Shown here piece after piece: positions 42,493-63,128 of a stretch of DNA of 64,000 nt; position 1 is the first letter of the stretch, and each line of letters begins with the position of its first letter. The notes below the pieces were generated by a model, which saw nothing but the letters and a program-made list of their open reading frames with translations, searched no databases and was not told where the DNA came from. The DNA is from Candidatus Latescibacterota bacterium (lineage in GTDB: Bacteria; Latescibacterota; UBA2968), in the NCBI GenBank assembly GCA_965198115.1, contig OZ240241.1, positions 7,424,001 through 7,488,000 on the forward strand. Direction: 5' to 3'. A program made the position numbers and the translations under genes.

Positions 42493-42920
42493 GCGTTGTA
42501 TCACCTTGGCCGATGTTGATGTGAATGATTTCCAATCCTCCTGCGTAGCTGTTCCCGATAATTAGCGAGCACGCAAGCAATGCATTCAGCTCCTCATAAA
42601 CCCTCCTTCTCACTGGTCTTAGTTGATTGCCTTAACATCCTGTGTTCCAAAAGCGAGAAGCAGGACGGTGGCTGACACAAGAGCAAATCTGCACATTACT
42701 TCCTCCTGACTTTGCCACATACGCAAAAGGGCGCACTTCCCCAATGGGCCAGTCATCCCACTTCTTGTCCACGTCACCTCCCAAAGGTAACTTACTCATG
42801 CGCATTCATTATCGAAGTCGACTGGCTGGATACGTCCAGTCTGCCAGCAATGGCGGAGTGTATCCAGCCGGTCGAATGCTATGGTTCCGGTCGCTGAAAG
42901 GCCCGGACTGGCCCCAGAAA

Positions 42921-43433
42921 GTGCGCCCCTCTGTATCCTCAAGATTTCCTCACCTGTTTATCAGATTGCGACCTTTATTTGCTACGTTGGCCGTTTTGAC
43001 TCTCTTTGGAGGCGGCTGCGGCAAAGAAGACCCCATTTCTCCAGACGAGGAGCATTACGAAGCCGAAGGTCTTGTCCTCGTCGACTCGGGAAACCGGTTC
43101 TTCCGATACTTCCAGGGGAAAATCGACGCCGGCGACGGGCGGGTAGACCACCTCGAGGTCCCTCACGGCGAACTCACCAGCCACTGGAGCATCTGGTTCC
43201 TGGATGCGAACGGCGCCGAAATGGCCCCGCCGAGCGGCCCGGCGTTCGAATTCACGTGGGTCATCGGCGATCCCTCGATCGTGGAAGTCGTTCAGGATGA
43301 GGGCGAGGAAGGAACGTTCGAATTCCATCTGCGCGGGCTCAAAGTGGACGAAACCACCATTGTGTTGCAGATTTCGCACGAAGGCCACGCAGACTTCCGC
43401 ACTATCCCGATCCCGGTCCACGTGGAAGCTTGA
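42921..43433 (+). CDS. Lipoprotein, probable partner of the downstream TonB-dependent receptor
   Basis: Signal peptide LAVLTLFGGGC followed by EEHYEAEG...HEGHADF. Start uncertain. Confidence 0.65.
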   Translation: MRPSVSSRFPHLFIRLRPLFATLAVLTLFGGGCGKEDPISPDEEHYEAEGLVLVDSGNRFFRYFQGKIDAGDGRVDHLEVPHGELTSHWSIWFLDANGAEMAPPSGPAFEFTWVIGDPSIVEVVQDEGEEGTFEFHLRGLKVDETTIVLQISHEGHADFRTIPIPVHVEA

Positions 43434-43665: not shown

Positions 43666-46425
43666 TAAAGCCCGCGGTTGTCTGGACACTCGGGTGAGTG
43701 TATTCAGGCGGCCTTTCGAGTTGCCGTGAGTGCGTTTCTAGCCTGTTCGGGCGTCTTGTAGCCGTGACGTTCGATGATCCACCTGTGGTTGTATCTGTCC
43801 CGAAACTCAAGGAGTGCGAGGCGCAGGTCTTCGATGGTACTGAAGTGTCTAACCCACAGGAGGTTTTCTTTGAGGGTACGGATGAACCGCTCGGCGCATC
43901 CGTTGCCTTCTGGCTCACGCACGAAACTCGGCGATGTTTGGACGCCGAGGAATGCGATCTCGTTCTGGAAGTCGTCAGAGACGTATTGTGACCCGTGATC
44001 GTGTCGGAGCTCCAGTCCTTCGGCGATGTTTTCTTCGAAGCCCCCGAAGTGTTCACGGATGCCCTGTCGGATCGGCTCGAGAGCCTCAAAGCGGTTGGCC
44101 GTCTTGGAGGCGTGAATGCCCACACACTCGCACGTGCAGTGGTCGATCGCGATAAACACGGAGGCTCTGCCCTCGTCGACCGTGGGCGTCACAGTCAGGT
44201 CGGTGCCCCACATCTGATCGGGCTTCTCGGTCGTAATCGTGCCATCGTGGGCTCGTCGTTCGCGACGCCGTCCTGGACGCGCCTGGAGCCCGTTTTCACG
44301 CATCAACCGGCGGACCCGATCCTTTGACGTCCGCATACCGTGAAAGCGAAGCCTGGCCCAGATCTTGCGGTATCCTTCGCCGTGGAAGGGTGACGCGTCG
44401 ATCTCCTGCTGAATGAGGGAGACCAATTCCTCATCGGTACCCGCTCCGACCGGGCCTCGCTTCCGGGGTTGCCGAAGATCGGTTACGGATGAACGACGAA
44501 GCTGGCTGTGCACCGTGGAACGGGGTATCTGCAACACTTTGCACACGCGTTTAATGCTGTAGCGTCTCTCCGTGGAGGGCGAAAGGACCTCACTCATTTC
44601 CGCGACCTCCGATGCGCCAAAGGGCGGCGGGCTTCCAGACGATCGATTCTTTGTTGCAGCAGCTCGTTGTCCATCGTGAGCTCGCCAATCTTCGCCTGGG
44701 AGTTCAGGTCAATAGGTGTGTAAAAGAAATCAGGCGGCCATCTTCCCGGCTTCGACCTGCGGTCCGGTTGAGTGTTTCTGATCGTAGACTTGTTGTAGCA
44801 AGTGTGGCGCGGTGAGTTTCCTGAATCGGCTCTCTGCGACCTTGAGCGTACGCCAGATGAGAGCCGTGGCGTTCCTGACTTTCTTGAATCGCCTGGCGGC
44901 GTTTGTGCGAAGCCGAACGGAAGCAAAGGGGCTCTCGACGACGTTCGTGGTTCTCAGGTGTTTCCAGTGTTCCTTCGGGAAGTCGTAGAACGTGACCATC
45001 CGATCCCAGTCTCTTTCGAGCGTCTCCACGGCGGCAGGGAACTGTGAGCGATACCGTGCGGCAAAGCGTTTCCGGAGCTTCTCGGCCTCCTTTTTCGTGC
45101 CGGCATAGGGGATCTGGACGAGCAGTGCGCGGGCTTCAGCCTGTGCACGCTTGGCGACCTTGTCGAGCACGTTGAGGATCTTGTGGTTCCAGCACCGTTG
45201 TTGCCGGCTCTCTGGCCAGACCTGATCAACGGCCGCCCAGATGCCCATATTCCCGTCCGCGGCGATCAGGACAGGATGTTCGAGCCCGCGATCCCGGAGA
45301 TCCCGGAGCACCGTGAGCCAGGATTCTGTAGACTCTCGATAACCGGGTTCTATCGCCAGGATCTCCTTGCTGCCGTCGCTCATCGCGCCGATCACGACCA
45401 GCAGACACGCCTTCTCGCGCTCGAGCCCGGCTTTGACGTAGATGCCATCAGCCCAGGCGTAGACCAGTTCGCGATTATCCAGACGCCTTTCTTTCCAGTC
45501 CTGGAAGTCGACCTCCCACTTCCCTCGAAGACGAGCGATCGAGGTCGGCGAAAGCGGCGCGCCATCACCGAGCAGCGCACGCAAAGACAACTCGAAGTCG
45601 CCCTGGGAGAGACCGTGGAGATAAAGGTCGGGAAGCAGATCTCCAATGGCCCTGGTTCTCCGGGCGAACAGGGGGAGGATGCGGCTTTCAAACCGCTCTT
45701 CCAGACCACGAACCCGGGGACGCCGGACCTTGATCGTTCCGCAGCTCGTCGAGAGACGCCGGGGCTTGCCGTAGCCGTTCCTGTAGCCCCTGGAGCTATC
45801 GACCTCGGCTCGGCGCTCATACCACGACCGGCCCAAGAACGCGGTCGCCTCCTCCTCCAGAATGGACTGGAACCGGCCCTGGATCTCTTCACGGATCCAA
45901 TCGTCAACCGTCTCCCACGTCGGCATGGACTTCAATGGGGCTCTATGCGTATGTTCCTTCACGGCGATCCTCCTTCCCAACCGGGCCTCTCACCCGGTTT
46001 TGTGTGAATCAACTATCTCACGGGAAGGGTAGGGTCGCCCTTTCTCTTTTTCCACACCTTTTGATTATAGCTCTCGCCTGGAGGTCCTTGACCCTCTCGT
46101 CACGCTCGTCGCTCGGACGAGAGCGTAGTGCGGCTTGGGCGCCAGAGTGGAACTGATCGCGCCACTCGCTCAATTTAGCTGCCGTTACTCCCAGATCGCG
46201 AGAGACGCTGTCGAGGCTCTCGCCACGCATCACACGTAATACGGCTTCGGCCTTCTTCTTCACGGAGAAACGACCCTGCGAAGTCGCGCTTGGATCGGCT
46301 GGGCCTCCGCTCGCTCTCGCTCGCTCCGCCCCAACCGATCCCCTGGTAGCCTTGTTCATGGTGGACCCTCCTTTTCGACCTACTGTAGGTCAACGGAGTG
46401 TCCAAGAAAACCCCGGGGCGCTGGA
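43666..46425 (-). mobile_element. IS3-family element (orfA 46359-44594 split by IS256; orfB 43704-44597) flanked by a 17-bp direct repeat
   Basis: orfB motifs GYRKIWARLR, WGTD, HDHGSQY, NGCAERFIRTLKE. ATTCATTTCTATGCCTG occurs at 43649-43665 and 46426-46442. Confidence 0.88.
44700..46073 (-). mobile_element. IS256-family element, intact transposase 44730-45980, nested in IS3 orfA
   Basis: 8-bp TSD TCGCCTGG (44692-99 and 46074-81). TIRs GAGTTCAGGTCAATAGGTGTG and GAGCTATAATCAAAAGGTGTG. Motifs WADG, QRCWNHK, LRTTNVVES. Confidence 0.92.
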
Positions 46426-46435
46426 ATTCATTTCT

Positions 46436-48712
46436 ATGCCTGACAGACCGGAGCCAAAGCGTCTGGCGCCCACTGGAAATGTGAGCGCCCTATTTTCCGG
46501 CAGGTCACGCTTCAAATGGACAGCGCTCGTGCTCCTCAGTCTGCTTTTCTTACCCGGGATCAGCACTGCGAATAAAGCCGTCTTGATCGAAGGATACGTT
46601 TTCGACCGCGAAACTCGGCGCCCGATCGAAAACGTCAACGTCCAGCTCGGCGATCGCGCAGGGGGTGCAACCACCGATGAACAAGGCCGCTTTGCCCTCC
46701 GTCTGTCGCCGGGGGCCTATCGTCTGTCGTTTACGCACGTCGGATATCGAACAACGGATCTTGAACTGACCGTCTCAGGCGCAAGACATCCGATCCTCTA
46801 CGCCGAAATGGCCCCGCTCGCCCTCCAAATGGCCGCGCTCGACGTCGTGGCAAAACGGGCTGAGACTCGCTTTGACGAACGCCAGGAGACGACCGGCGTG
46901 CTCTCAGGCGACGAGCTCCGGAAGAAATACGGCCGCACGCTTGCCGAGACGATGAAGAACGAAATCGGGGTCGCCATCCGCAGCATGGGGCCTGCGCCTG
47001 CCCGCCCAGTCATTCGCGGCCTCAGCGGCGACCGCATACAAATCAACGTCAACGGCATCCAGACCCACGATCTATCCGCCACCTCCGCCGATCACGCCGT
47101 CACCTTGGAACCGTTCAACGCGGAACGCCTCGAAATCATCCGGGGGCCCCGCACCCTGCTCCACACCGCCACCGCCGTCGGCGGCGTGATCAACCTCGTC
47201 AGACACAAGATCCCCCAAGTCCACCCCCGACGCCTCTCCGGCAGCGTAGGCGCCTACGGAGAAACCGTCAACCGCGGCTATCTCTCATCTGTCGCCCTCA
47301 CCGCGCCCTTGGGCCCGCTCGCACTCTATGCCGAAACCACCTACCGGGATACGCGGGACCTGCAAACGCCCATCGGCAAGCTCGACAACACGTCTGTCAA
47401 CACCCGCACCCATACCCTCGGTCTGTCCCACGCCGCCAGTCGGGGCTACATCGGCGCTTCTTTCGATCAATTCGACACCGAATACGGCATTCCGGGCGGA
47501 TTCATCGGGGGCCACCCCAACGGCGTAGACCTAGACATCCTGCGCCGGGTCTTCGACGGCCGGGCGGCTTACCGTTTCGACCGCGGCGTGATCAGCAGCG
47601 TAGAGGCGGGCTTCACGAGGACCTTTTACCATCACCTCGAGTTCGAATCCAACGGCAGCATCGGGTCGGAGTTTTTGTTCCGGGACTACAGCGGCGATCT
47701 GAAGCTGCACCTGAACACGCAGAACCAGAAGCGAAACACCGTCCTCGCCCTCGGCTTTGGCCAGCACGAACTCGAACTGGGCGCCTTTGTCTTCACGCCC
47801 CCGACAAAAGAGCAAAGCGCCGCCATCAGCCTCTATCACGAATTGACCTATCGTCAGATCGAGCTTCAGGCCGCAGCCCGCTACGCCTACACCGCCTTCG
47901 ATCCGCGTCCCAATGCCTGGTCCAACGTCGGCCTGGATGTCGACCGAACGTTTCACACCTGGTCTGCAGCCATCAGCCCGCTTCTTCCCCTCACCGACCA
48001 AGTGATCGCCGGCCTCAGCCTCAGCCGGTCCCAGCGCGTGCCGACAATCGAAGAGCTCTACAACGAAGGTCCGCACTTGGCCGCGTATACATTCGAGGTG
48101 GGCAACGTCCATCTCAATTCGGAAAAAAGCCTCGGCCTCGAGGCCTTTTTGCACTACCTGCAACCGGGCCTCGACCTCGTCTTCATCGGATTCTGGAACG
48201 AATTCGACAGCTACATCGCCCCGCGCAATACGGGTGAAATCAATTTCGCCCAACTCCTGCCCATCTACGCTTCCAACGGCATCGCCGCCCGCATGCGGGG
48301 CCTCGAGATGCACCTTGGGTGGCGCCCAAATGCCCGTCTAAGCCTGGAATTCAACACCAGCTCTGTCCACGGCCAGAACCGTGATGAAGATCTGCCCCTG
48401 CCCGAAATGCCGCCGCTCAAGCTTGTGGGCAGCCTCACCTACCGGCACCCGTGGTTGACGTTGGGTGGGACGTCGGAGCTGATCGCCAGGCAGGATCGCG
48501 TTGACGAATTCGAACAACCCACGGACGGCTACACTGTCTTCGGCATCTACGCCCAGCGCGACATCCTCACCGACCATACCCGCCACAGCCTCATCCTCTC
48601 GGTAGAAAACCTCTTCAACACGGAATACCGCAACCACCTCTCGCGCATCCGTTCCGTGATGCCCGAAACTGGCCGAAACGTGAAGGTGAATTACAAGTTG
48701 TTCCTCTTTTAG
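46436..48712 (+). CDS. TonB-dependent receptor (ZnuD-like, probable metal uptake) with N-terminal carboxypeptidase-regulatory-like domain
   Basis: ARPVIRGLSGDR, SADHAV, RGPRTLL..GGVIN, EGPH, NLFNTEYRNHLS, GRNVKVNYKLFLF. Confidence 0.9.
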   Translation: MPDRPEPKRLAPTGNVSALFSGRSRFKWTALVLLSLLFLPGISTANKAVLIEGYVFDRETRRPIENVNVQLGDRAGGATTDEQGRFALRLSPGAYRLSFTHVGYRTTDLELTVSGARHPILYAEMAPLALQMAALDVVAKRAETRFDERQETTGVLSGDELRKKYGRTLAETMKNEIGVAIRSMGPAPARPVIRGLSGDRIQINVNGIQTHDLSATSADHAVTLEPFNAERLEIIRGPRTLLHTATAVGGVINLVRHKIPQVHPRRLSGSVGAYGETVNRGYLSSVALTAPLGPLALYAETTYRDTRDLQTPIGKLDNTSVNTRTHTLGLSHAASRGYIGASFDQFDTEYGIPGGFIGGHPNGVDLDILRRVFDGRAAYRFDRGVISSVEAGFTRTFYHHLEFESNGSIGSEFLFRDYSGDLKLHLNTQNQKRNTVLALGFGQHELELGAFVFTPPTKEQSAAISLYHELTYRQIELQAAARYAYTAFDPRPNAWSNVGLDVDRTFHTWSAAISPLLPLTDQVIAGLSLSRSQRVPTIEELYNEGPHLAAYTFEVGNVHLNSEKSLGLEAFLHYLQPGLDLVFIGFWNEFDSYIAPRNTGEINFAQLLPIYASNGIAARMRGLEMHLGWRPNARLSLEFNTSSVHGQNRDEDLPLPEMPPLKLVGSLTYRHPWLTLGGTSELIARQDRVDEFEQPTDGYTVFGIYAQRDILTDHTRHSLILSVENLFNTEYRNHLSRIRSVMPETGRNVKVNYKLFLF

Positions 48713-49546: not shown

Positions 49547-49671
49547 GCAACCTGCCCCGCCTCTTGCTGGCCTGGGGTCTCGACCGAAGCGGTACGGACC
49601 CAAAGCCGCGAGCTGGTTCTAGGGCGCTCGCTTTCCGAGTTCTCTGAGCAATCCGGGGACGCTGGTGCTCC

Positions 49672-49759
49672 CTTTGTGGTTTGTGTGTTGACACATTTAC
49701 CAAAACACGGCAATGTGTTTTAGTGGTTATTTCTTTTCTCAATCAGAAGGGTGGCGTGG
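49672..49759 (+). repeat. 88-bp inverted repeat, copy 1 (promoter plus parA 5' end)
   Basis: Identical to the reverse complement of 53282-53369 except at 49711. Confidence 0.95.
49688..49722 (+). promoter_or_regulatory. sigma70-like promoter for leaderless parA, within TGTG-rich putative ParG operator/centromere
   Basis: TTGACA-17 nt-CAATGT-6 nt-GTG start; no Shine-Dalgarno. Confidence 0.55.
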
Positions 49760-50329
49760 GCAAAACCACACTGGCAGTGAATGTCGCCGCTGGGTTGGCC
49801 CGTAACGGGCACAATGTCCTTTTGATCGACGCCGACAAGCAAGGGTCCGCCTCTGCTTGGGCGAGCTTGCGCGAGCATACCGATTTCAAGGTGATCTCAC
49901 TCGCCCGCGAAAACATGGCGCGGGATGCGCTGAAACTGGCAGCCGACCACACCTACACCGTGATTGATGGCCCGCCACACGCTGAATCCATTGCTCGCTC
50001 GTGCATTGTGGCGTCTGACCTTGTCCTCGTGCCCATCGAACCAAGCGGCCTGTCTACTTGGGCCAGCGATCTCACCGTCCGTCAGGTTCAGGAAGCACAG
50101 GAACTCAAAATCATCAAATGTTGTTTTGTGGTTTCACGCAAAATAGGGAACACGGTTATCGGTCGCGAGATCCGCTCGATGGCTGCCGCGATGGGCATCC
50201 CGATCCTGGCAAACGAAATCGCCCAGCGAGTCGCCTATGCCGAGAGTCTGACGATGGGCAAAATGATTTTTGAATGGGCACCGGAAAGCCCTGCCGCGAG
50301 CGAGATTGAGAAGCTGACAAAGGAGATTC
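49723..50329 (+). CDS. parA: ParA/ParF-type partition ATPase, 3' end interrupted by IS630
   Basis: NQKGGVGKTT, LLIDADKQGS, VIDGPP, QRVAYAES. Removing the IS restores EILSYEQ..., overlapping the parG start. Confidence 0.9.
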
Positions 50330-51596
50330 TAAGTGCATGGTTTCATAAACATTATTACGTATGTCCTGAACATTATTTGTAGCTTATGTTCTCCTTCAAA
50401 AGGAGGAGAACAATGCCAAGACGTTCGCCTTATGTGGTGCTACTGTCTGAGAAGGAACGGGTCGACCTCGAGCGAATGGCTGGACAATATACGTTACCGT
50501 ATTATCAAGTGATCCGATCGAAAATCGTGCTTCTCGCCGCCGAGGGATTATCCAACAAGATTATCGCCCAACGGTTGGATGTCCCGCGTCCGATCGTAAG
50601 CAAATGGCGTAAGCGCTTTTTCGAAGAGCGTCTTTCGGGACTCGAAGATAGATCTCGTCCCGGGCGCCCGCCCGGTTTTCCCCCCTCAGGTGGTCGTTCA
50701 GATCAAGGCGCTGGCGTGTGAACTACCGAGCGAGAGCGGGATACCGCTCTCGCGGTTCAGCTGTTCCGAGATTGCCGCCGAGGCAGTGCAAAGGGGCTTC
50801 GTTGCCAAGATCAGCGGCGCCACTGTCTGGCGCTGGTTGAACGAGGACGCGATTCGTCCTTGGTATCATCGCTCCTGGATTTTCCCACGGGACCCGGACT
50901 TCCAAACCAAAGCAGGTAGAGTCCTTGATCTGTATCACCGCCAATGGCAAGGAAAGCCTTTAGGGCCGAGGGAATATGTACTTTCTGCCGACGAAAAGAC
51001 CAGTATTCAAGCACGAGCTCGCAAGCACGTTACCCTACCGCCAGCCTCGAACAGAGCGGCACGCGTTGAAACACGAATACGAGCGGAAAGGAGCCCTGGC
51101 CTATCTGGCTGCTCTCGACGTGCACAATGGTCGAATCTTCGGTCTCTGTGAGTCTTCTTCGGGTATCGAGCCCTTCAACCGGCTCCTGAGCCTGATCATG
51201 AGCCGGAAACCCTATTGCTCGGCAAAGAAAGTCTACCTCATCGTGGATAATGGCTCCTCGCACCGAGGGCAAACATGCATCGACCGTATCCAGGGGAAGT
51301 GGCCAAACATCCACCCCGTTCACCTTCCGATCCACGCAAGCTGGCTCAATCAGATCGAGATCTACTTCTCGATCCTCAAACGCAAGGCTCTGACACCTAT
51401 CGAATTTGCATCGCTCGAAGAGCTTGAGGCAAGAATCCTCGGTTTTCAGGAACGCTACGGACGTATCGCCACACCCTTCAAATGGAAGTTCACACGAACA
51501 GATCTCGCGGAGATGATCGACAAACTCAGGTTCTACGATACGCCCTTGGCAAAGTCTGCTTAGAATACGTCACCGTATTTGAGAACAGGAGTACTA
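50330..51596 (+). mobile_element. IS630-family element (three ORFs: 50413-50721, 50690-51151, 50976-51563)
   Basis: HTH domain, TTTTCCCCCC slippery site, SADEKTSIQ, DNGSSH, HASWLNQIEIYF. CTAA/TA at both ends. An extra frameshift near 51068 (GTTGAAACAC). Confidence 0.88.
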
Positions 51597-51600
51597 AGCT

Positions 51601-51918
51601 ATGAGCAAGAAATCATTTCAGAGCGTTCCGAAACCAAAAATGCTTACCGATGACGCCCTGGAGTCCTTTGAAAAAGCGGGTCCAGGCCAGGGCCCGGCCC
51701 TTGAAGAACCTCCCCGCAAGAACATCAAACAGGAGAAAACCACTGAGCCGACAAAACGGCTCAGCGTAGATGTTCCGGTCTCCGTCCATCGGCGTTTCAA
51801 GACAGCGTGTAGCGCAACCAGCCGCCAGATGGTCGCTGAGTTACGACACTTGATTGAAGCCCACATATTGGAGCTTGAAAGTGAGATCGGGAGCGTCGGG
51901 CAGGATGACCTCCGCTGA
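51601..51918 (+). CDS. ParG-like ribbon-helix-helix partition protein
   Basis: Flexible N-terminus, then TKRLSVDVPVSVHRRFKTAC..MVAELRHLI; directly after parA. Confidence 0.75.
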   Translation: MSKKSFQSVPKPKMLTDDALESFEKAGPGQGPALEEPPRKNIKQEKTTEPTKRLSVDVPVSVHRRFKTACSATSRQMVAELRHLIEAHILELESEIGSVGQDDLR

Positions 51919-52069
51919 TGCGGCATTGTCACGTTAGCTTGCTGCTAGTTCGTCGAAGCTCCCTTGCATCCGGTACAGCGTTGACACCTCGGCTTCCTGG
52001 AGAAGGAAAATCGACTGACTTCCGCGGTGTCACTCTCCGTCTCCACCATATGAGGGCCATGCCCACTAC

Positions 52070-53175
52070 ATGATGAAGCGTGACTGGGACCTCCTCTTCT
52101 CGGAGGACGACCTCAGGGCCGGACTCGAGAATCAGCTGAGCCAGGTCGAAGACAAAGTGCGGGCCGTCGATCCTGTGCGATTCGAAACCAGCACCGACGA
52201 CCTCCTTTCAGCCACCATTGCCTCAGAGCTCGTGTTCGCTCCAATCGAGCTGCATGAGGACCAGCTCTCCGTCTCACCTCGCGACGCCAAGGTGGATGTT
52301 TCATACGACCACGACCGCGCTTTCTTTGGCCCCGGTCCGCACTACGTGGATGGATTGGAGGTCACATACAACCTTCCCTTCTCTGGCGACGCGGATCTCT
52401 TCAAATGCAAGCCAAACCAGTACACCTACAATGCACCTCGCGCGGTCCTTCGGCCAGGCGAATTGACCTTCCCCTACGACAGTGCGAATCGTGACGTAGC
52501 AGGGACGAAGAAGTCCTTTGACGACGACCTCACAACGATCAAGGAATGGCTAGGCTGGCAGGCCAGTCAGATCGCGGAATACAACGCCTCACTCGAAGAT
52601 CGTGTACGAAGCGCGGTCATCGCTCGCCGGGCAGAACTCTCCAAGACCCAGTCGGATCTTCAGGCACTTGGCATTCCCATCAAAGGGACCGAAGGACCAG
52701 CTGCCCCCTCGTCTGAACCACCGGCCAACCCGTTGAGCGTCGAGAGACAAAAAGGAAGGAGGCAAGGCGCGAGTATGACGTGGCGCTGTCCTTCGCGGGC
52801 GAGGATCGAGAATATGTAGAGCAGGTTGCCGAGCACCTCGTCAAGCTCGATGTCACCGTGTTTTACGATCGATACGAGACTGCTGAACTATGGGGTGAAG
52901 ACCTCGCGGTCCACCTCGGGAATATTTACTCCCGCGACTCCCACTTTGTGGTCATGTTCGCGTCACGGCACTATGCAGAGAAGGCGTGGCCGAATCACGA
53001 GCGGCAGCATGCCTTGGCGAGGCACCTCAAGGGGCAGACCGGCCGGATACTCCCTGTGCGTATCGACGACTCCGAGATCCCGGGCGTCCCGTCGACAATC
53101 GGTTATCTGGACGCGCGCGCCGTATCTCCAGACAAGCTCGCTGAACTGATTCGCCAGAAGGTGGATGCGCGGTGA
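52070..53175 (+). CDS. Uncharacterised N-terminal domain fused to a TIR (TIR_2) domain, split by a 1-nt frameshift at ~52717-52775
   Basis: The TIR frame is open from 52717: PVERRETKRKEARREYDVALSFAGEDR..VFYD..LWG..SRHYAEKAWPNHER..ILPVR. Confidence 0.75.
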
Positions 53176-53281
53176 CAGCCGGCCTCCGTAGCCGGTTACG
53201 CGGTATGTCAGATAACGCCGGGCTCCCGGCACGGGCCTTCACCGGCACTCCTTTCAAAAGGGGCTTCCCAATGAGTGAGAG

Positions 53282-53369
53282 CCACGCCACCCTTCTGATT
53301 GAGAAAAGAAATAACCACTAAAACACATTACCGTGTTTTGGTAAATGTGTCAACACACAAACCACAAAG
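53282..53369 (-). repeat. 88-bp inverted repeat, copy 2
   Basis: Minus strand reads TTGACA-17-TAATGT-6-GTG GTT ATT...GGC GTG G, then diverges from parA. Confidence 0.95.
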
Positions 53370-53714
53370 AGAACCCGACACCTGTACGAATGCGTGTGTG
53401 GCGACTGTCCGGCTGTACGTGATCGGCCCCCCGTTGTGGGCGCAGCAACTGGCGGCGAAGGGCGAACGGTGGACTCTGACCGGCGAAGGTTCGGCGGCGG
53501 CCCGGCGGTTCCTTGCGGGCAAGCAGTCGTTGGAGCGGGGCGGTCGGAGAGAGGGTGGGACCCGGACGACCCGACGGCGGACGATGCCGCGCGGAAGCGG
53601 TACGACCGGGCGGTCGAAACCCTGAAGCGGGAGTATGGATCTCTTCCTCCTTGCCCGTCGAGCTTGGACTTGCCCAGTGCGCCCTTGGGGTGGGCGGCGC
53701 AGTCTGCCCTTGGC

Positions 53715-54745: not shown

Positions 54746-57700
54746 TCAACCCAGGACCATCGTCTGATTCTTAGACTGCGGCGGCGTATAGGTCAGCCCG
54801 AAGACGTTATCCGTCAGCCATCGCCGGAATCCCTCGTTGTCTGTGAACTGCTTGAAGAGTTGCATGTCGTCGTTGAGCACGGCAGTCATCACGCGCCTCA
54901 GGGCTTCGTCATGCTCGATCCGGGCGTTCTGCCTGTCGGAGTTCTCCCGGGCGTTGCGATAGGCGGTGTCCTCGGCAACCTTGGCCGGAATCTCCTCTGT
55001 AATGAGGCGTCGAACGCGGTCCTCATCCTCCCAGAGGATGTGTCCAAACTGATCGTTGAAGGTCTTGAGGATGTTCGAGAGCCGTTCGAGTTCGGTTTCC
55101 GCCCGGTGTCGGCCGCCGGTGGTCGGTAGCGGCTCGATCTCGGCGTCCTCGTCCGCCAGTTGGACGTGTATCGCCGCCTTCTTCTCGACCCGGTAGCTGT
55201 CCATGTCGATGGACTCGAGGATGCCTTTGGACAGATCCTCTTCCACGGGCGCGGGGAGCTTCGGCACGAGGAAGTTCAGGAAGATCGAGAGCTTCTCCCA
55301 CTCGGCGTTCGTGTACGGCAGGATCGAGGCGAGGAAGCCGTACGCGCGTACGAACGCCTTGCCCTTGCCCTTGAAGTTCACCTGCCCGTCCTCGTCGAGC
55401 TGCTCCTTGTAGACCGCGACGCAGGCATCGAGGATGGGGTCGAGCTGGTCGCGGTCGGCCCCATCCAGGTAGAGCGTCACGAGCCGGTCGACCTCCGCGT
55501 CGGCATACACCTGATAGCCGTCGAGCTCGGCCTTGAGGTCGTGCAGCTTGTTGGGATCGGTTTCCTCGCTGAGGATCGTCGTCCGGTAGTAGTCAGCGAA
55601 CGCCTCCTGGATGGTATCGGCATCGTTCATGAAGTCGAGCACGAACACGTCGTGTTTCTTCGGGTGCGCCCTGTTGAGACGCGACAGTGTCTGCACGGCC
55701 TTGATCCCGGACAAGATCTTGTCCACGTACATGGTGTGCAACAGCGGCTCGTCGTAGCCGGTCTGGAACTTGTCGGCGCAAATGAGGAACCGATACGGGT
55801 CCCGCTGGATCTCGTCGGCGATTCGCCCGGACGGGAAGCCGTTGAGGGACACCTCACTGACCTTCACCTCGCCATACTCGTGCTCGCCCGAGAAGGCGAC
55901 GATGGCCCGGTACGGGCTCTTGCGCTCCAGCAGATACTGCCGGATCGCGTGGTAATACTGGATCGCGCGCTCGATGCCGCTCGTCACCACCATCGCGCGC
56001 GCCTTGCCGCCGATCTTGTTGAGCGCCAGCACCTGTTCGTGGAAGTGGTCCACCATGATCTCGGCCTTGAGCCGGATGGCATGCTCGTGGCTCTCGACGT
56101 AGCGGCGCAGCTTCTTCCGGGCGCGCTTGGTGTCGAACTCGGGATCCCCCTCGATCTTCTTGATGAGCTTGCAGTAGCTCGCGACTGGCGTGTAGTGCCG
56201 CAGCACGTCCAGGATGAAGCCCTCCTGGATCGCCTGCTTCATGGTGTAGCTGTGGAAGGGGCGGTGCCTGGTCTGCCCTTCCGCGTCGTATGCCTCGCCG
56301 AAGATCTCCAGCGTCTTGTTCTTGGGCGTGGCAGTGAAGGCGAAGTAGCTCGCGTTCGGGAGGAGCCTCCGCACGGCCATGATGCGGTTGATCGTGTCTT
56401 CGGTGGTCTCGTCGTCCTCCCCGGCACCCACCTCGGAGAGCGCCATGCTGACCGCTGCCGAAGTCTTGCCGCCTTGGCTCGAATGCGCCTCGTCGATGAG
56501 GATGGCGAAGCGCCGGCCCCGCTGCTCGTTCCCGATCGCGTCGAGGATAAACGGGAACTTCTGCACCGTCGAGATGATGATCTTCTTGCCGCTCTCGATA
56601 AACCTGCGGAGGTCACCCGAGCGGTCGGCATGGCCAACGGTGGCCCCGACTTGGGCGAACTGCTTGATGGTGTCGCGGATCTGCTTGTCGAGGATGCGTC
56701 GGTCGGTGACCACGATGATGGAGTCGAACACCGCCGCGTCGTCCTTCCTGAGCCCGATCAACTGGTGGGCGAGCCAGGCGATGGAGTTGGACTTCCCGCT
56801 GCCGGCCGAATGCTGGATGAGATACCGTTTCCCGGCGCCGTGCCGGCGCGTGTCAGCCAAGAGCCGACGCACCACCTCGAGCTGGTGGTAGCGCGGCCAG
56901 ATCTGCTCCTTCCTCTTCTTGCCCGTCTTCTCGTCCTTGGTCTCGACGATCTGCGCATAGTTCTCCAGGATGTTGGTCAGCCCGTCGCGGGTGAGCAGGC
57001 GCGTCCAGAGGTAGTCGGTCTTGAGGCCGTCCGCGTTGGGCGGGTTCCCGGCACCGTCGTTCCAGCCCTGGTTGAAGGGTAGGAACCACGAGGTCTTACC
57101 CTTGAGGTGCGTGCAGAACCGCACTTCGTGGTCGTCCACCGCGAAGTGCGCCACGCAACGGCCAAACTCGAACAGCTTCTCGCGCGGGTCGCGATCGCGC
57201 TTGTACTGCTCCACCGCGTCCTCGACCGTCTGCTTGGTGAGGCTGTTCTTCAGCTCGAAGGTGGATACCGGCAGGCCGTTAATGAACAGGCCGAGGTCAA
57301 GTGCGCGCTGAGTCTCATCACGGCTGTAGCGGAGCTGGCGCGTGACGGAGAAGCGGTTCTGCGCGTAGCGTTCAGCGGCGGCGGGGTTGCCGGGAGACGG
57401 CGTGCCGTAGAAGAGTTCGACGTGATGCGGCCCGTCCTTGACCCCCTTGCGGAGCACGTCGATGACTCCGCGCCTGCTGATCTCGCCCTGGAGCCGGGCC
57501 AGGAACTTCCGGCGCCCTGGGCCATCATCTTCCAGGTGCAGGCCCTCGAAGGCATCCGGTTGCGTTTCGACGAGGAACGCCAGGAGTTGTGCTAAATCGA
57601 CCGTGTACTCGCGGTCGTAGCCGTTGGGCGCGCCGCAGATCCATCCGGCCCCACCCGAGGGGGAGATGGCTTCGCCTTCCAGATCTGTCTGCGACAATGT

Positions 57701-57775
57701 GGCATCGCAGGGATTGCCGGTCAGAGCGGTGCAGATCAGCCGTTCGAGGCCGCGTTCGCTGGTGTCGGTCGTCAC
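54746..57775 (-). CDS. hsdR: Type I restriction endonuclease subunit R
   Basis: DLGLFING..FELKN, HSAGSGKS, IDEAHSSQ, FTATPK, KFQTGYDEP, VQTLSRLNR. Confidence 0.96.
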   Translation of the reverse strand: MTTDTSERGLERLICTALTGNPCDATLSQTDLEGEAISPSGGAGWICGAPNGYDREYTVDLAQLLAFLVETQPDAFEGLHLEDDGPGRRKFLARLQGEISRRGVIDVLRKGVKDGPHHVELFYGTPSPGNPAAAERYAQNRFSVTRQLRYSRDETQRALDLGLFINGLPVSTFELKNSLTKQTVEDAVEQYKRDRDPREKLFEFGRCVAHFAVDDHEVRFCTHLKGKTSWFLPFNQGWNDGAGNPPNADGLKTDYLWTRLLTRDGLTNILENYAQIVETKDEKTGKKRKEQIWPRYHQLEVVRRLLADTRRHGAGKRYLIQHSAGSGKSNSIAWLAHQLIGLRKDDAAVFDSIIVVTDRRILDKQIRDTIKQFAQVGATVGHADRSGDLRRFIESGKKIIISTVQKFPFILDAIGNEQRGRRFAILIDEAHSSQGGKTSAAVSMALSEVGAGEDDETTEDTINRIMAVRRLLPNASYFAFTATPKNKTLEIFGEAYDAEGQTRHRPFHSYTMKQAIQEGFILDVLRHYTPVASYCKLIKKIEGDPEFDTKRARKKLRRYVESHEHAIRLKAEIMVDHFHEQVLALNKIGGKARAMVVTSGIERAIQYYHAIRQYLLERKSPYRAIVAFSGEHEYGEVKVSEVSLNGFPSGRIADEIQRDPYRFLICADKFQTGYDEPLLHTMYVDKILSGIKAVQTLSRLNRAHPKKHDVFVLDFMNDADTIQEAFADYYRTTILSEETDPNKLHDLKAELDGYQVYADAEVDRLVTLYLDGADRDQLDPILDACVAVYKEQLDEDGQVNFKGKGKAFVRAYGFLASILPYTNAEWEKLSIFLNFLVPKLPAPVEEDLSKGILESIDMDSYRVEKKAAIHVQLADEDAEIEPLPTTGGRHRAETELERLSNILKTFNDQFGHILWEDEDRVRRLITEEIPAKVAEDTAYRNARENSDRQNARIEHDEALRRVMTAVLNDDMQLFKQFTDNEGFRRWLTDNVFGLTYTPPQSKNQTMVLG

Positions 57776-59232
57776 ACCGTAGCCTCCTCGGGGGTGGTGT
57801 CGAGGCCGTCGCGGGGCTCTTCCTCACCGTTGATGATGACTTCAGCCTCGTCGAGCGGCTCCAATTCCTCGACCTCGTCCGGTAGCTGGGCGGCTGACTC
57901 CCGAACGTCGAGCTTGCCGGTGACCACGTCTGCGATGAGGCGGGTACGGTATTCGCGGAGGAGGGAGATTTCTCGTTGAGTTGACGTGGTCGCCGTATCA
58001 AGGTCTGCGGTGGCTTGATCCAAGAAGGACACGATGGCCGCTTGCTCCTCAGACGGGGGCCAACCCAGCAAGATGTTACCGACAGTGTCTGTGTTGAGAT
58101 TAAGTTGGGTTCCAAGCTTTCCAAGCCGAGCGAAAGGAGTACCAGACGCGAAGACCCGATAGAGAAAATCGGCGTCGCCGTTGAACTGTGGGAAGTAGAC
58201 GAACCCGTCGTGGATACAGCACTTGATGCGGGTGATCATCGGTTTTCCCACCGAGCCAGCGATGCTCAGAAACAGTGCGCCTGGTTCGAGCAGCACGCTT
58301 AGCGACTGGCCGAGCACGGAGAGCCGCTGTGTGGTGCGCTCAAGATAGCGGCTGCTGGCCGTAACGTCGGCGATGCGCACCCATGCGTACTCACCATCAT
58401 CGTCAAAGTACTTCGGATCGGCAATGGGCCTGGGTGATGCCCCGCGCTTAACCAGCGACAGACTCTTCACCCGCCGAACCTCCCAATGCTCCGGCACGTC
58501 CCCCAGCCACTCCACACCGGAGGACTTGAGGCGGACGTTGGGGTCGAGGCCGCGCGTGACGGCGCGGTGGATGACGGCCTGCTTCTGCTCCTGCAGCAGC
58601 GTGATCAGCTTCTGCTTGGCACGGATGTAGCGCCGGATGCGCCGGTCGGCGTGGTCGAGGAAGCGGACGATGGCAGCTTGTTCTGGATAGGGCGGAATGC
58701 AGACCTCGAACGTTCCCAGCCTTGTCTCGGCAATCGCTGGATATGCGATACCCACTGCCTCTGCCGTAACGCGGTTTGTGAACGGATCACTCTGGCAAAA
58801 ATAGCTCGTGAACCTCGGGAACGTGCCGCGTCGCGGCGTCAGCACTGCAAAACCGGTTGACGCGACTAGATCATCACCCGTGTGTTCCGCGTGCCAGACA
58901 GCTTTCAGATAGGTCCTCACCGTCGAAACGATCGTATCGCCGGGCCTGACGACACGCCTTGCCCGAGACGGTGAGTTTCCGAATCGAATCCGTTCGGGCT
59001 TTGCGGTCAATCGGCCAGTCGCAACTGACCCGATGTCCAGGTACTCGAATGTGTACTCTGGATCAGTGTCTTCCGACAGGACGAATTCATTGACGTCCAA
59101 CCAGCTCTTGAGTCTCCGCACCTCCCACTGCGCCGGCACCTTTCCCAGCCACTGGACACCGGAGTCCTTGTAGGCCTGGTACGGCTTGAGTGCGCGTGCC
59201 GCGTCGCGGCCGAGTTCACAGGTCGAGTTCAC
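57772..59232 (-). CDS. hsdS: Type I R-M specificity subunit S
   Basis: Two KDSGV.WLG.VP..WEV repeats, two PP..EQAAIV motifs, LIADVVTGK. Confidence 0.95.
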   Translation of the reverse strand: MNSTCELGRDAARALKPYQAYKDSGVQWLGKVPAQWEVRRLKSWLDVNEFVLSEDTDPEYTFEYLDIGSVATGRLTAKPERIRFGNSPSRARRVVRPGDTIVSTVRTYLKAVWHAEHTGDDLVASTGFAVLTPRRGTFPRFTSYFCQSDPFTNRVTAEAVGIAYPAIAETRLGTFEVCIPPYPEQAAIVRFLDHADRRIRRYIRAKQKLITLLQEQKQAVIHRAVTRGLDPNVRLKSSGVEWLGDVPEHWEVRRVKSLSLVKRGASPRPIADPKYFDDDGEYAWVRIADVTASSRYLERTTQRLSVLGQSLSVLLEPGALFLSIAGSVGKPMITRIKCCIHDGFVYFPQFNGDADFLYRVFASGTPFARLGKLGTQLNLNTDTVGNILLGWPPSEEQAAIVSFLDQATADLDTATTSTQREISLLREYRTRLIADVVTGKLDVRESAAQLPDEVEELEPLDEAEVIINGEEEPRDGLDTTPEEATV

Positions 59233-59458
59233 GGAGAAGCTCCTCGACGGTCATTTCGTGGTGCTGGGCAACGCTCTTCAGGATGCTCGATAGCGTCTTC
59301 ACCCTGATCGGAGTGTGCAGCGGGATCACCTCATGATGTTCACCGTTGATCTGCGTCGTGATTCGCACGTGGGAACCCCGCTGTCGCACGGTGTCGTACC
59401 CCAGACGTCGAAGCGACGCTTGCAGCGTCGCGCCGCTCACGTTCCGGGGCAACTTCAT
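59216..59458 (-). CDS. hicA: HicA-family toxin
   Basis: MKLPRNVSG..LGY...RQRGSHVR...IPLH...TLSSIL. Confidence 0.88.
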   Translation of the reverse strand: MKLPRNVSGATLQASLRRLGYDTVRQRGSHVRITTQINGEHHEVIPLHTPIRVKTLSSILKSVAQHHEMTVEELLRELDL

Positions 59459-59667
59459 GCCACGAGAACCTCGTCCCGCACGAAGTGCAACCGAATCAAC
59501 TTCGGTCGCGGCATGGTGTCGTCGAAGTAGCAGTCGACGGCCTCCTTGACGTTGCTGCGGATCTCCTCGACAGACTCGCCCTGGGTGTGAATGCCGTGCC
59601 CGAGCGCGCTTGCCGAATACCCGCCGTCTGCTTCGTCTTCGGTGATTTCGAAGATGATCTCAGTCAT
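59455..59667 (-). CDS. hicB: Short HicB-like antitoxin (no DNA-binding domain)
   Basis: EIIFEI.EDEADGGYSASALG..IHTQGESVEEIRSNVKEAVDCYF. Confidence 0.8.
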   Translation of the reverse strand: MTEIIFEITEDEADGGYSASALGHGIHTQGESVEEIRSNVKEAVDCYFDDTMPRPKLIRLHFVRDEVLVA

Positions 59668-62600
59668 GCAGTCGTCTCCCGCTGTTCGCCGCCGCCGAGA
59701 ATCTCGGCCAGCAGCCCTTCCGTCTCCTGCTCCAGCGCCAGAATATCCGCCCGAATCTCTGCCAGCGTCCGCATCGGCTTCGGCTTGTAGAAGTAGCGCG
59801 TAAAGCTGATCTCGTAGCCGACCTCCACACTGTCCGCGTGGTACCAGGCGTCGGCCGCGTACGGCAGGACCTCGCGGCGCAGGAACGCCTCAATGCCGCC
59901 GTCTTCCTGCAACGGGATCTGCTCGGTGTCGCGCAGGTCGGTATCCGGCTCGTACTCAACCACGCGGCACTTGCCTTTTACTGTGGATTCGACCAGACCA
60001 CGGATCGAGTCCGGCTCCATCCTGCCCGGCTTGTGGATCTTCTTGATGACGGGTTCGGCCGCCTCAGCCCGCGTGGCCAATGACGTCTGAAGCAGCTTGC
60101 TTCGCTTGGCCGTCAACTTGACGCCATGCTCGGAGATGTCCGTCTCGACGGCAGCCATGAAGCGATTGAAGTCGAGGTGAGGTCCGGCGCCTAATGCCTC
60201 GGTCACCCGGTCGACGACGTTGGCAATCGGCTCTTCCTGCGCTTCCCTGCATGCGGCGCGGAAGCGCAGGCGTTGTTCGGGAGACAGATCGACGGTCACC
60301 TTCCAATAACCGAAGGCCCGGTTCGGGAAGATCTTGGATTGCTCGGTTTCCTCAAACGCCAGGAACGTATCGCAGATGCGTTGGATGTCCTCCTCCGACA
60401 GCTCGCAGTTCTTCTTGCCGAGGTTCTTGCGCAGCGGCTCGAACCACTGCGTGGCGTCGATGAGCTGCACCTTCCCGCGTCGATGGGAGGGTTTACGGTT
60501 GGTCAGCACCCAGATGTAGGTGGCGATGCCGGTGTTGTAGAACATGTTGAGCGGGAGGGCGACGATGGCCTCCAGCCAGTCGTTCTCGATGATCCAGCGG
60601 CGGATGTTGCTCTCGCCCTGCCCGGCGTCCCCGGTGAAGAGCGAGCTGCCGTTGTGTACCTCGGCGATGCGGCTGCCGAGCGGGGTATCCTGCTTCATCT
60701 TGGAAAGCTTGTTGGCGAGGAAGAGCATCTGGCCGTCGCTGGAGCGGGTCACCAGAGAGTACTCGGGATCGCCCGCATGCTCGATCACGAAGCGCGGGTC
60801 GCGCATGTCCTTCTTGCCGCCCATACGCTCGAGATCGCTCTTCCAGTTCTTGCCGTAGGGCGGGTTGGAGAGCATGAAGTCGAACTCGCGGGACGGAAAG
60901 GCGTCGTTGGAGAGCGTCGAGTGTTCCGGCCCCCCGACGATGTTGTCGGCGGCTTCTCCCTCCCCCTTGAGGAGGAGGTCCGCCTTGGCGATGGCGTAGG
61001 TTTCGGAGTTGATCTCCTGGCCGTAGAGATGGGCGGCGACCTACTTGCCGCGCTGCCCGGCGATCTGCGTCAACGTCTCCTCGGCCACCGTCAACATGCC
61101 GCCGGTGCCGCAGGTACCGTCGTACACCAGGTAGGTCCCGGAGTCGATCCGGTCGGCGACAGGCACGAAGACCAGCTTCGCCATGAGCGTCACGGCATCG
61201 CGCGGGGTCCAGTGCTCGCCGGCTTCCTCGTTGTTTTCCTCATTGAAACGGCGGACCAGCTCCTCGAAGATCGTGCCCATCGCGTGGTTATCCAGGCCGG
61301 GTTGCTTGATCGACCCGTCGCCATGGAGGACCGGGTGAGGACTTAGGGTTTGCCACGAAATAAGTGCTGCACTTTTCAAGGTAATGATCTTACGCTCGGA
61401 GTGTGGACGTCGAAACTCTCCGAACGAAGTATGAAGCCTTGGCTCCGGTGCTGACGGAACGCACGCGTCGTCTGTGGGCCGCCACGGAAGCCGAAGCGTT
61501 GGGTCACGGTGGGATCGCGATTGTGGCTCTGGCGACAGGAATGTCCAGAGAGCGGATCTTTCGTGGCATTCAGGAGTTGAGGTCGGACGAACCTTTGGAC
61601 CCGGCTCGCATCCGGCGTCCAGGCGGCGGTCGTAAGCGGAAGGCCGACACGGACCCGACGCTGTGGCAGGACCTGAATGATCTGGTCGAGCCAACGACTG
61701 CGGGGTCGCCTGACGACAATCCTCTGAGATGGACATCGAAGAGCACTCGCAAACTGGCCGCCGAGTTGCAAGCGATGGGGCATTCGGTGAGCCCCAGGAT
61801 CGTTGCCAATCTCCTGCACGAACACGATTACACGCTGCAGGCGAATCGGAAGACAAGGGAGGGATCTGCACACCCGGATCGGGACGCTCAGTTCGTTTAC
61901 CTCGATGATCGGATTAGCCAGCAGCAGCAGCAGGGCCTTCCCGTTATCTCGGTGGACACCAAGAAGAAAGAGTTGATCGGCGACTTCAAGAATCCTGGCC
62001 GAGAATGGCGACCCAAGGGAGACCCGGAGCGTGTGAAGGTACACGATTTCATAGTGCCTGCTCAGGGCAAGGCGATCCCTTATGGAGTGTATGATCTGAG
62101 CCGTGATGAAGGCTGGGTAAGTGTCGGTATCGATCACGACACGGCCAGCTTCGCCGTGAATGCGATCCGAAGTTGGTGGAAGAACATGGGACGGCCCGCC
62201 TACGGCACTTCGACGCATCTGCTAATCACGGCGGACGCAGGCGGCAGCAACGGCGCCAAGACGCGGCTGTGGAAGTGGGAGCTGCAGCGCTTTGCGAATC
62301 GCACTGGCCTGACGATCACCGTATGCCACTACCCTCCTGGCACTAGTAAGTGGAACAAGATCGAACATCGCCTGTTCTCCTTCATCGCTATGAACTGGCG
62401 AGGCAAGCCCCTGGTCAGCCTGGCTGCAACCGTGAATCTCATTGCCGGAACGACCACTCAAGCCGGTCTCCGAGTACGCTCCGAGATCGACAAGCGACCC
62501 TACCCTAACGGGGTCAAGGTGACCGATGAACAGATGACCCAAATCGATCTCACTCCGCACGATTTCCACGGCGACTGGAACTACACGATCCGGCCAATGG

Positions 62601-63096
62601 CTCAACATTGAGATCGACCGTTTATTTATTCGCGAACCCTAAGGTTCACGTCCGGCGAGAGGAACTTCTCGATCAGCGTGCCGAGGGCGTCGACCTTGGA
62701 CAGGCGGGGAATCTGGTTCCGAAACTCGAACTTCTCCAGGATGTCCTGGACGTTCGGCGAGAAGCCGTCGAGATAGGCCTCGAAGTTGGCCTTGAGCTGC
62801 TGTTGGCTGGCACGGGCCTTGAGATCGCGTAGCGTGAACTTCGAGGTATTGTAGAACGCCTGGCCGGCGGCCTGACGCAGTGCCTGGTCCTGGTGGATGA
62901 TCTTCGCCTTGTCGAGCGAGGTCTTCATCTCCAGCACCGCCAGCGTGCTCGGCTCAAGCACTGCGTCGAGCCTCCGCAATACTGTCATCGGCAGGATCAC
63001 GTCGCGGTACTTGCCACGGACGTAGAGGTCGCGCAGCACGTCATCCGCGACGCCCCAGATGAAGTTGGCGATCCAGTTGAATTGAGGGTGGTCCAC
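59664..63096 (-). pseudogene. hsdM: Type I R-M methyltransferase M, disrupted by ISAzo13 and an in-frame TAG (61041-43)
   Basis: NFIWGVADDVLRD..YRDVILPMTVLRR; MGTIFEELVRRF..GEHWTPRD..YDGTCGTGGML; K*VAAHLYGQEIN; LSNPPYG; GYEISFTRYFY. Confidence 0.93.
61346..62639 (+). mobile_element. ISAzo13-family element with intact transposase (61403-62611)
   Basis: LRWTSKS, ISVDTKKKE, HDTASFAV, ADAGGSNG, PPGTSKWNKIEHRLFS. TIRs GGGTTTGCCACGAAATAA and GGGTTCGCGAATAAATAA; flanks TTA/TAA. Confidence 0.93.
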
Positions 63097-63128
63097 GGGC
63101 CTCCTATTTCTCAAGCGCAGCTTCGGCC

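What the first reader, a model, noticed from the sequence alone, without database searches (positions are those of the whole stretch)
52070..53175. Candidate novel anti-phage protein: uncharacterised ~220-aa domain fused to TIR
Seen: a 249-aa ORF overlaps a TIR ORF whose frame is open upstream (..REYDVALSFAGEDR..W.NHE). One extra base near 52730 would give a single ~368-aa protein that keeps the putative catalytic Glu. Established: bacterial TIR domains act as NADase or signalling effectors in Thoeris, CBASS, Pycsar and SPARTA. Inference, from unverified recall: this N-terminal domain (PF.GD.DLF...P...PRA, then a coiled coil) usually carries a PD-(D/E)xK nuclease C-terminus. A nuclease-to-TIR swap is typical of sensor-effector defence proteins. 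It sits on a plasmid remnant about 1.6 kb from a type I R-M operon.
Basis: partly seen in the sequence, partly recalled or inferred. Interest (0 to 1): 0.7.

Follow-up and report, generated by a model that had tools for sequence, protein, structure and literature searches.

The report
Unknown-fold domain with swappable immune effectors
This frameshifted gene copy, intact in near-identical relatives, joins a domain with no matching solved structure to a TIR enzyme predicted to destroy NAD+, and because the same domain carries nucleases in other bacteria it is likely an undescribed virus-sensing module of bacterial immunity.

Summary
Observation confirmed. A 249-aa ORF (52070-52819) and a TIR frame (52717-53175) are one gene, broken by one missing C in the run at 52729-52731. 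Relatives in 8 of 8 runs laid carry four C, and intact 368-aa proteins exist whose last 146 residues are identical. The break is about as likely real decay (0.6) as assembly error (0.4): this genome is full of insertion sequences and broken genes.

The N-terminal ~205 aa is the N-terminal half of PADLOC candidate PDC-S54, whose C-terminus carries a PD-(D/E)xK-type motif, so the recalled swap is right. The family is large (4,521 clusters). It fuses to the nuclease, three TIR types, Schlafen or a HEPN-like domain, or stands alone; a tree rejects one origin of the TIR fusions. The domain matched no solved fold. The TIR keeps an invariant Glu and is closest to AbTir. No partner gene is conserved.

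Best reading (0.6): a single-gene sensor-NADase abortive defence that works like SpbK. Against it: defence-neighbour enrichment was not shown (6 of 20 loci versus 4 of 20 controls), and no trigger or activity is known. Verdict: new effector variant of an untested candidate family.

The parts
52070..52684 (+). N-terminal domain (NTD, ~205 aa), homologous to the N-terminal half of PDC-S54; predicted helices, inserted beta-sheet and a 57-residue C-terminal helix
   Evidence: PADLOC E=1.2e-43, residues 4-209 to profile 3-207 of 410; AF2 pLDDT 88.5; no fold match
52685..52770 (+). Pro-rich linker and basic helix leading into the TIR domain; contains the break
52729..52731 (+). C run one base shorter than in relatives: the frameshift
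52771..53175 (+). TIR_2 domain (YDVALSFAGEDR type), out of frame in this assembly
   Evidence: Pfam E=6.9e-18; AbTir best sequence hit E=2.7e-7 and best fold hit; last 146 codons identical in protein to intact P0228 and P0233
52999..53001 (+). Predicted catalytic Glu (E311 of the intact protein)
   Evidence: invariant in 44 of 44 aligned fusions; aligns with the W-x-x-x-E Glu of AbTir and BtpA; its catalytic role there is recalled
52022..53236 (+). Extent of DNA shared with a Gemmatimonadota MAG (96%): the gene and short flanks only
   Evidence: contigs of two runs span 52022-53228
49681..51918 (+). Context: parA cut by an insertion sequence (50329-51598), then a parG-like gene
   Evidence: NCBIfam NF041546 above cut-off; ParG E=0.073, weak; 66 IS copies; empty-site joint in 3 runs
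54746..63114 (-). Context: type I R-M-like operon (label from recalled motifs, no family scan); methylase gene broken by an in-frame stop at 61041-61043 and an IS

Best explanation
The window holds a frameshifted copy of a 368-aa gene that fuses a PDC-S54-type N-terminal domain to a TIR domain, and the intact protein is likely a single-gene anti-phage system in which the N-terminal domain is predicted to bind a phage product and cluster the TIR domains, which would then destroy NAD+ and arrest the infected cell. Shown: the fusion, the break, intact alleles, the invariant Glu, repeated effector swapping and the absence of a conserved partner gene. Inferred: NADase activity (from AbTir and SpbK), sensing and clustering by the N-terminal domain, and phage as the trigger. 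This copy is probably inactive if the break is real (0.6) and intact if it is an assembly error (0.4).
For: Same-frame fusion in 56 of 70 protein hits and 22 of 25 NTD-bearing metagenome loci. The NTD belongs to a PADLOC defence candidate. Among the 55 full-length proteins in the top 150 profile hits the C-terminus is a PD-(D/E)xK-type nuclease (30), TIR (21, three motif types), Schlafen AlbA_2 (3) or a HEPN-like domain (1): all cell-arresting effector classes (established knowledge). The tree needs 13 effector changes where 6 is the least possible, and one TIR clade is rejected, p-AU 4e-6. The TIR is closest to AbTir by sequence and fold. No neighbour family recurs across 25 loci plus the window. 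Distribution is patchy, 10 of 168 phylum genomes, with a 96% copy in a Gemmatimonadota MAG. SpbK shows this mechanism for an NTD-linker-TIR protein (PMC12847820, abstract and passages).
Against: PADLOC hits among three flanking ORFs each side: 6 of 20 TIR-fusion loci versus 4 of 20 control loci, p=0.72; 9 of 110 versus 5 of 120 ORFs, p=0.27. Several copies sit among housekeeping genes. I found no test of PDC-S54 in print. Only 12 of 32 E. coli TIR candidates defended in one screen (PMC11350192, section 6). The NTD fold gives no clue to a ligand. The BB-loop region of the TIR model is low-confidence.
Confidence: 0.6

Rival explanations
1. The TIR makes a cyclic ADP-ribose signal for a separate effector encoded elsewhere (Thoeris-like) instead of depleting NAD+.
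For: Weak ThsB profile hits, E 1e-4 to 1e-2. The stand-alone NTD lies beside TIR-TIR-caspase genes on two plasmids. SpbK also makes N1-cADPR (PMC12847820, abstract).
Against: No conserved effector neighbour. The TIR occupies the slot that direct-acting nucleases fill in relatives.
Confidence: 0.1
2. The NTD is a constitutive oligomerising or auto-inhibitory scaffold rather than the sensor; the trigger acts through another protein or through its degradation.
For: Long amphipathic helix 143-199. Stand-alone NTD genes upstream of a caspase-helicase fusion. Conserved residues are mostly Gly, Pro and Leu.
Against: Fused forms have no conserved partner. Invariant or nearly invariant polar residues (D76, R83, N172, R186) could form a binding site.
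Confidence: 0.12
3. It is a toxin triggered by plasmids, other mobile elements or stress rather than by phage.
For: Beside parA/parG here and ParB genes on a plasmid. Family members on 14 and 20 plasmid records. No defence enrichment.
Against: No cognate antitoxin is conserved. Neighbours differ in every locus.
Confidence: 0.12
4. It is a host-directed TIR protein of an animal symbiont, like BtpA/TcpB.
For: BtpA/TcpB are among the closest solved TIR domains. A close relative's contig lies in a sponge metagenome run.
Against: The same fusion occurs in many MAGs of other lineages, and the NTD mostly carries a nuclease.
Confidence: 0.04
5. On the break itself: it is an assembly error and the cell has the intact gene (the alternative to real decay).
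For: It lies in a homopolymer; 8 of 8 runs carry CCCC; the TIR shows no private change; P0014 has the same break in an 84%-identical lineage.
Against: None of those runs is this strain (best share 0.66). 0 deletions in 1,904 four-base-run observations in 295 IS copies. About 10 of 259 orthologs are frameshifted and 4 carry clear nonsense codons. The flanking parA and methylase genes are truly broken, and the L024 copy is deleted internally.
Confidence: 0.4

Closest known systems
PDC-S54 (PADLOC PDLC05036, phage defence candidate)
   Same: Same N-terminal domain (profile 3-207 of 410); single gene.
   Different: The C-terminal nuclease-motif half is replaced by TIR. PDC systems are predictions from embedding in BREX, DISARM or R-M (bioRxiv 2024.01.29.577857, section 10; S54 is not named in the main text).
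SpbK (Bacillus subtilis)
   Same: NTD-linker-TIR in one gene; NADase switched on when the NTD clusters on a phage portal (PMC12847820, abstract and passages).
   Different: SpbK's NTD is a 94-aa four-helix bundle; this one is ~205 aa, alpha/beta. No sequence or fold hit to SpbK was listed.
E. coli single-gene TIR-V, TIR-VI, TIR-IX
   Same: One protein with only a TIR recognised; triggered by portal or tail fibre (PMC11350192, section 6 and passages).
   Different: Their sequences could not be compared. No Escherichia record was among the plasmid hits.
AbTir and BtpA/TcpB
   Same: Closest solved TIR domains, Glu aligned.
   Different: SHASEDK motif type; about 29% identity; no hit to the NTD.
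Prokaryotic Schlafen sensor fusions (pSlfn)
   Same: Effector fused to varied sensors; 17% of partners are unannotated (PMC13056530, passages). Three NTD-Schlafen fusions were seen here.
   Different: The characterised pSlfn5 sensor is Ig-like; this NTD was not matched to it. The paper's supplementary table was not read.

Membership tests
PDC-S54 | N-terminal domain matches the profile | tested here: met
   E=1.2e-43, profile 3-207
PDC-S54 | C-terminal half (profile ~230-410) present | tested here: not met
   Intact P0002 matches only profile 3-223; P0072-P0075 match 1/4-407/408
TIR_2 domain (PF13676) | Score above the curated cut-off | tested here: met
   65.7 bits versus 28
TIR NADase | Conserved Glu after alphaC Trp | tested here: met
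   E311 invariant in 44 of 44; motif in 74 of 76; aligned to AbTir
TIR NADase | NAD+ hydrolysis on self-assembly | not testable with these tools
   Needs an assay
Thoeris (ThsB + effector) | Conserved adjacent effector gene | tested here: not met
   No recurring neighbour in 25 loci plus the window
CBASS / Pycsar / SPARTA / retron-TIR | Cyclase, Argonaute or reverse-transcriptase partner or fusion | tested here: not met
   None conserved; one of 20 loci has a pAgo nearby; retron-TIR 59.6 bits versus cut-off 600
SpbK | Four-helix-bundle NTD binding a portal | tested here: inconclusive
   Different length and predicted topology; SpbK not listed; binding untested
TIR-V / TIR-VI / TIR-IX | Sequence homology over the N-terminal part | tested here: inconclusive
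   Motif search of six supplementary files found no sequence match; two files were too large to read
DefenseFinder named systems | Profile match | not testable with these tools

The most novel reading that the evidence does not exclude
The N-terminal domain is a new-fold phage sensor used as a plug-in module across bacteria and archaea (over 4,500 clusters): fused to a DNase, three separate TIR lineages, Schlafen and HEPN-like RNases, or standing alone ahead of a caspase-helicase. One trigger would switch on five kinds of effector, defining a new immune family.
Probability: 0.35. Interest if true: 0.78.

Novelty: new variant of a known kind. Interest (0 to 1): 0.55.

Why it matters
New phage sensors are rarer than new effectors. 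Natural effector swaps on one domain allow a clean test: if the nuclease, TIR and Schlafen forms are escaped by mutations in the same phage gene, the sensor and its ligand are identified at once. It would also give the first functional reading of the PDC-S54 family that I could find. The window's own copy is of little value, since intact alleles exist.

Tried and rejected
Programmed frameshifting: rejected, because homologs are in one frame and the break maps to a C run, not the A run. Two real genes with a separately started TIR: unlikely; the first in-frame start (52780) cuts into the first strand and has no well-spaced ribosome site (sequence). Fold of the NTD: no PDB sequence hit under E=0.25, no Foldseek hit at E<=0.001 in PDB or BFVD, best VIA Z 7.6 with helical bundles only; this does not prove a new fold. 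Weak COMMD, LptE and ribosome-recycling-factor rows were not accepted. ESM Atlas returned only unnamed clusters at high score. A downstream stem-loop was no better than shuffles (z=-1.0). Defence enrichment: not significant; the ORF picker can choose wrong-strand frames, and the control is one genome. Earlier findings: none. Host taxon: not obtained. RNA-library contigs cover part of the gene but cannot show transcription. Complex prediction for an NTD dimer was not available, so oligomerisation is untested. Literature searches with no paper on this family: zero papers; listings, none naming it in title or abstract start. bioRxiv supplements, including the PDC tables, were closed and may bear on what PDC-S54 was annotated as.

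Full report
Observation. The 249-aa ORF at 52070-52819 and a TIR frame open from 52717 to 53175, shifted by -1, are as described. The TIR passes the Pfam TIR_2 cut-off (E=6.9e-18). The N-terminal part has no Pfam or NCBIfam family but matches positions 3-207 of the 410-position PADLOC candidate PDC-S54 at E=1.2e-43. Of 70 homologs found with the N-terminal part, 56 carry TIR_2, and the closest are 368-aa fusions at 82-92% identity. In metagenome loci, 22 of the 25 that hold the domain have it in one frame with TIR. That search used the fusion as query, so it favours this form.

The break. One C is missing from the run at 52729-52731. I laid 8 of the 24 runs listed; in all 8, every listed contig over the site has the extra C, as does L008. 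Intact proteins P0228 and P0233 match the window at 146 of 146 C-terminal and 213 of 219 N-terminal residues. The window has one private change, Y13D, and none in the TIR. These runs are relatives, not this strain (best word share 0.66; 14-15 substitutions over the gene in two runs), so they cannot prove an error. Internal checks point the other way. In 295 IS copies (363 kb) there were no deletions and two insertions in 1,904 four-base-run observations. Against 731 kb of a same-genus genome, 11 of 259 orthologs are frameshifted in this assembly; one of them is an ORF-boundary artefact, and four others carry clear nonsense codons among 24 flagged. The flanking parA is cut by an IS, and the methylase gene has an in-frame stop and an IS. 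I put real recent decay at 0.6 and assembly error at 0.4.

The family. A profile of ten N-terminal domains found 4,521 cluster representatives at E<=0.001, of which I saw the best 150. Their tails were: nuclease-type 57, TIR of the window's type 20, two other TIR types 5 and 2, Schlafen 3, one HEPN-like by a recalled motif, 46 with under 30 residues and 16 unassigned (many short ones are probably fragments). Among the 55 of at least 355 aa the counts are 30, 14, 5, 2, 3 and 1. Pfam confirms the TIR and Schlafen calls; the nuclease form has no Pfam family above cut-off, and its PD-(D/E)xK label rests on the motif GKTD(I)...ECK read from recall. The profile held six TIR-type and four nuclease-type rows, so TIR is over-counted. 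In the host phylum 10 of 168 genomes match, and all 9 others carry the nuclease form. The window's gene is instead 96% identical to one in a Gemmatimonadota MAG, with similarity ending at the gene's flanks, which points to recent transfer as a single gene. Of 14 plasmid hits I opened 9: six are nuclease fusions and three are stand-alone domains. A tree of 67 domains needs 13 effector changes where 6 is the minimum, and the window lies in a supported 17-row TIR clade. Holding all 27 TIR-bearing rows together is rejected (p-AU 4e-6; labels were set before the tree was built, and 27 of 64 inner branches are weak).

Structure. The intact homolog P0002 folds with pLDDT 81 and the window's domain with 88.5: short helices, an inserted beta-sheet and a helix from residue 143 to 199. 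All 12 Foldseek hits of the full model at E<=0.001 are TIR domains, best AbTir (E=2.3e-6, rmsd 2.6). The N-terminal domain alone matched nothing convincingly. Glu311 is invariant in 44 aligned fusions and aligns with the corresponding Glu of AbTir and BtpA; that this Glu is catalytic there is recalled.

Context. No neighbouring gene family recurs across 25 TIR-fusion loci and the window. For 20 of those loci (the ones with longer flanks) the flanking ORFs gave PADLOC hits in 6 loci (9 of 110 ORFs), against 4 of 20 control loci (5 of 120 ORFs); p=0.72 and 0.27. The control hits are all partial matches, whereas two test loci hold near full-length ones (a type II methylase; a pAgo and PDC-M50A), but several copies sit among housekeeping genes. 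Plasmid copies of the wider family lie beside a retron, an R-M subunit, TIR-TIR-caspase genes and an ATPase-S8 protease pair; this has no control. Enrichment is therefore suggested for the family and not shown for the TIR form.

Mechanism. Shown: one gene, interchangeable effectors, conserved Glu, no partner. Inferred: the constant domain receives the trigger and brings effectors together, since TIR NADases, these nucleases and Schlafen or HEPN RNases generally act as oligomers (established knowledge). For the TIR form this would deplete NAD+ and arrest the cell, as shown for SpbK on a phage portal (PMC12847820; abstract and passages read). I give this 0.6. Rivals are a scaffold role without sensing (0.12), a non-phage trigger (0.12), cADPR signalling (0.10) and a host-directed effector (0.04). 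Oligomerisation could not be modelled here.

Comparison with what is known. It works like SpbK and the single-gene E. coli TIR systems (PMC11350192; abstract, section 6, passages, one supplement read and six searched). It is not a member of Thoeris, CBASS, Pycsar, SPARTA or retron-TIR by partner tests, nor of PDC-S54 as modelled, because the second half differs. PDC systems are predictions (bioRxiv 2024.01.29.577857; section 10 and passages; supplements closed). I also saw the abstract of 10.64898/2025.12.03.692087 and passages of PMC13056530. Eight searches found no paper on this domain; subscription journals, most supplements and DefenseFinder were not searchable, so prior description cannot be excluded.

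Verdict. A real, broken copy of a real fusion gene: a new effector variant of an untested defence-candidate family whose shared domain has no matched fold. Interest 0.55.

Noticed in passing
L088:6986-14585 and L092:4763-10698: A stand-alone ~201-aa copy of the domain sits directly upstream of a caspase (C14)-DEAD helicase fusion, next to TIR-TIR-caspase genes, on two alphaproteobacterial plasmids: a possible two-gene system.
   Followed up: partly
window 49669-49759 and 53282-53372: A 91-bp inverted repeat (98%) brackets parA, the IS, parG-like gene and the TIR fusion; the repeat has high depth and many loose ends in related runs.
   Followed up: partly
G000 whole genome: Large IS expansion: 133, 74, 66, 17 and 5 near-full copies of five elements; 8.4 Mb against 3.6-6.5 Mb for the relatives searched; about 5% of orthologs broken.
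   Followed up: partly
window 59216-59667: Two small ORFs resembling a HicA/HicB toxin-antitoxin pair (recalled motifs, not scanned) lie inside the R-M-like operon between the methylase and specificity genes.
   Followed up: no
window 61041-62641: The methylase gene has an in-frame stop and an IS insertion while the restriction and specificity ORFs are open.
   Followed up: partly
G000:C1:8391862-8392818 and C1:7740397-7740519: A second, uninterrupted parA-parG copy (98%) and a short fragment of the N-terminal domain gene lie elsewhere in the genome.
   Followed up: no
window 42642-43433 and 46352-48712: A lipoprotein-like ORF and a TonB-dependent-receptor-like ORF separated by stacked IS elements; a similar receptor lies near the L024 copy.
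   Followed up: no
P0123: The domain fused to a C-terminus with an R-x-x-x-x-x-H-type motif and no Pfam hit; possibly a HEPN-like RNase.
   Followed up: no
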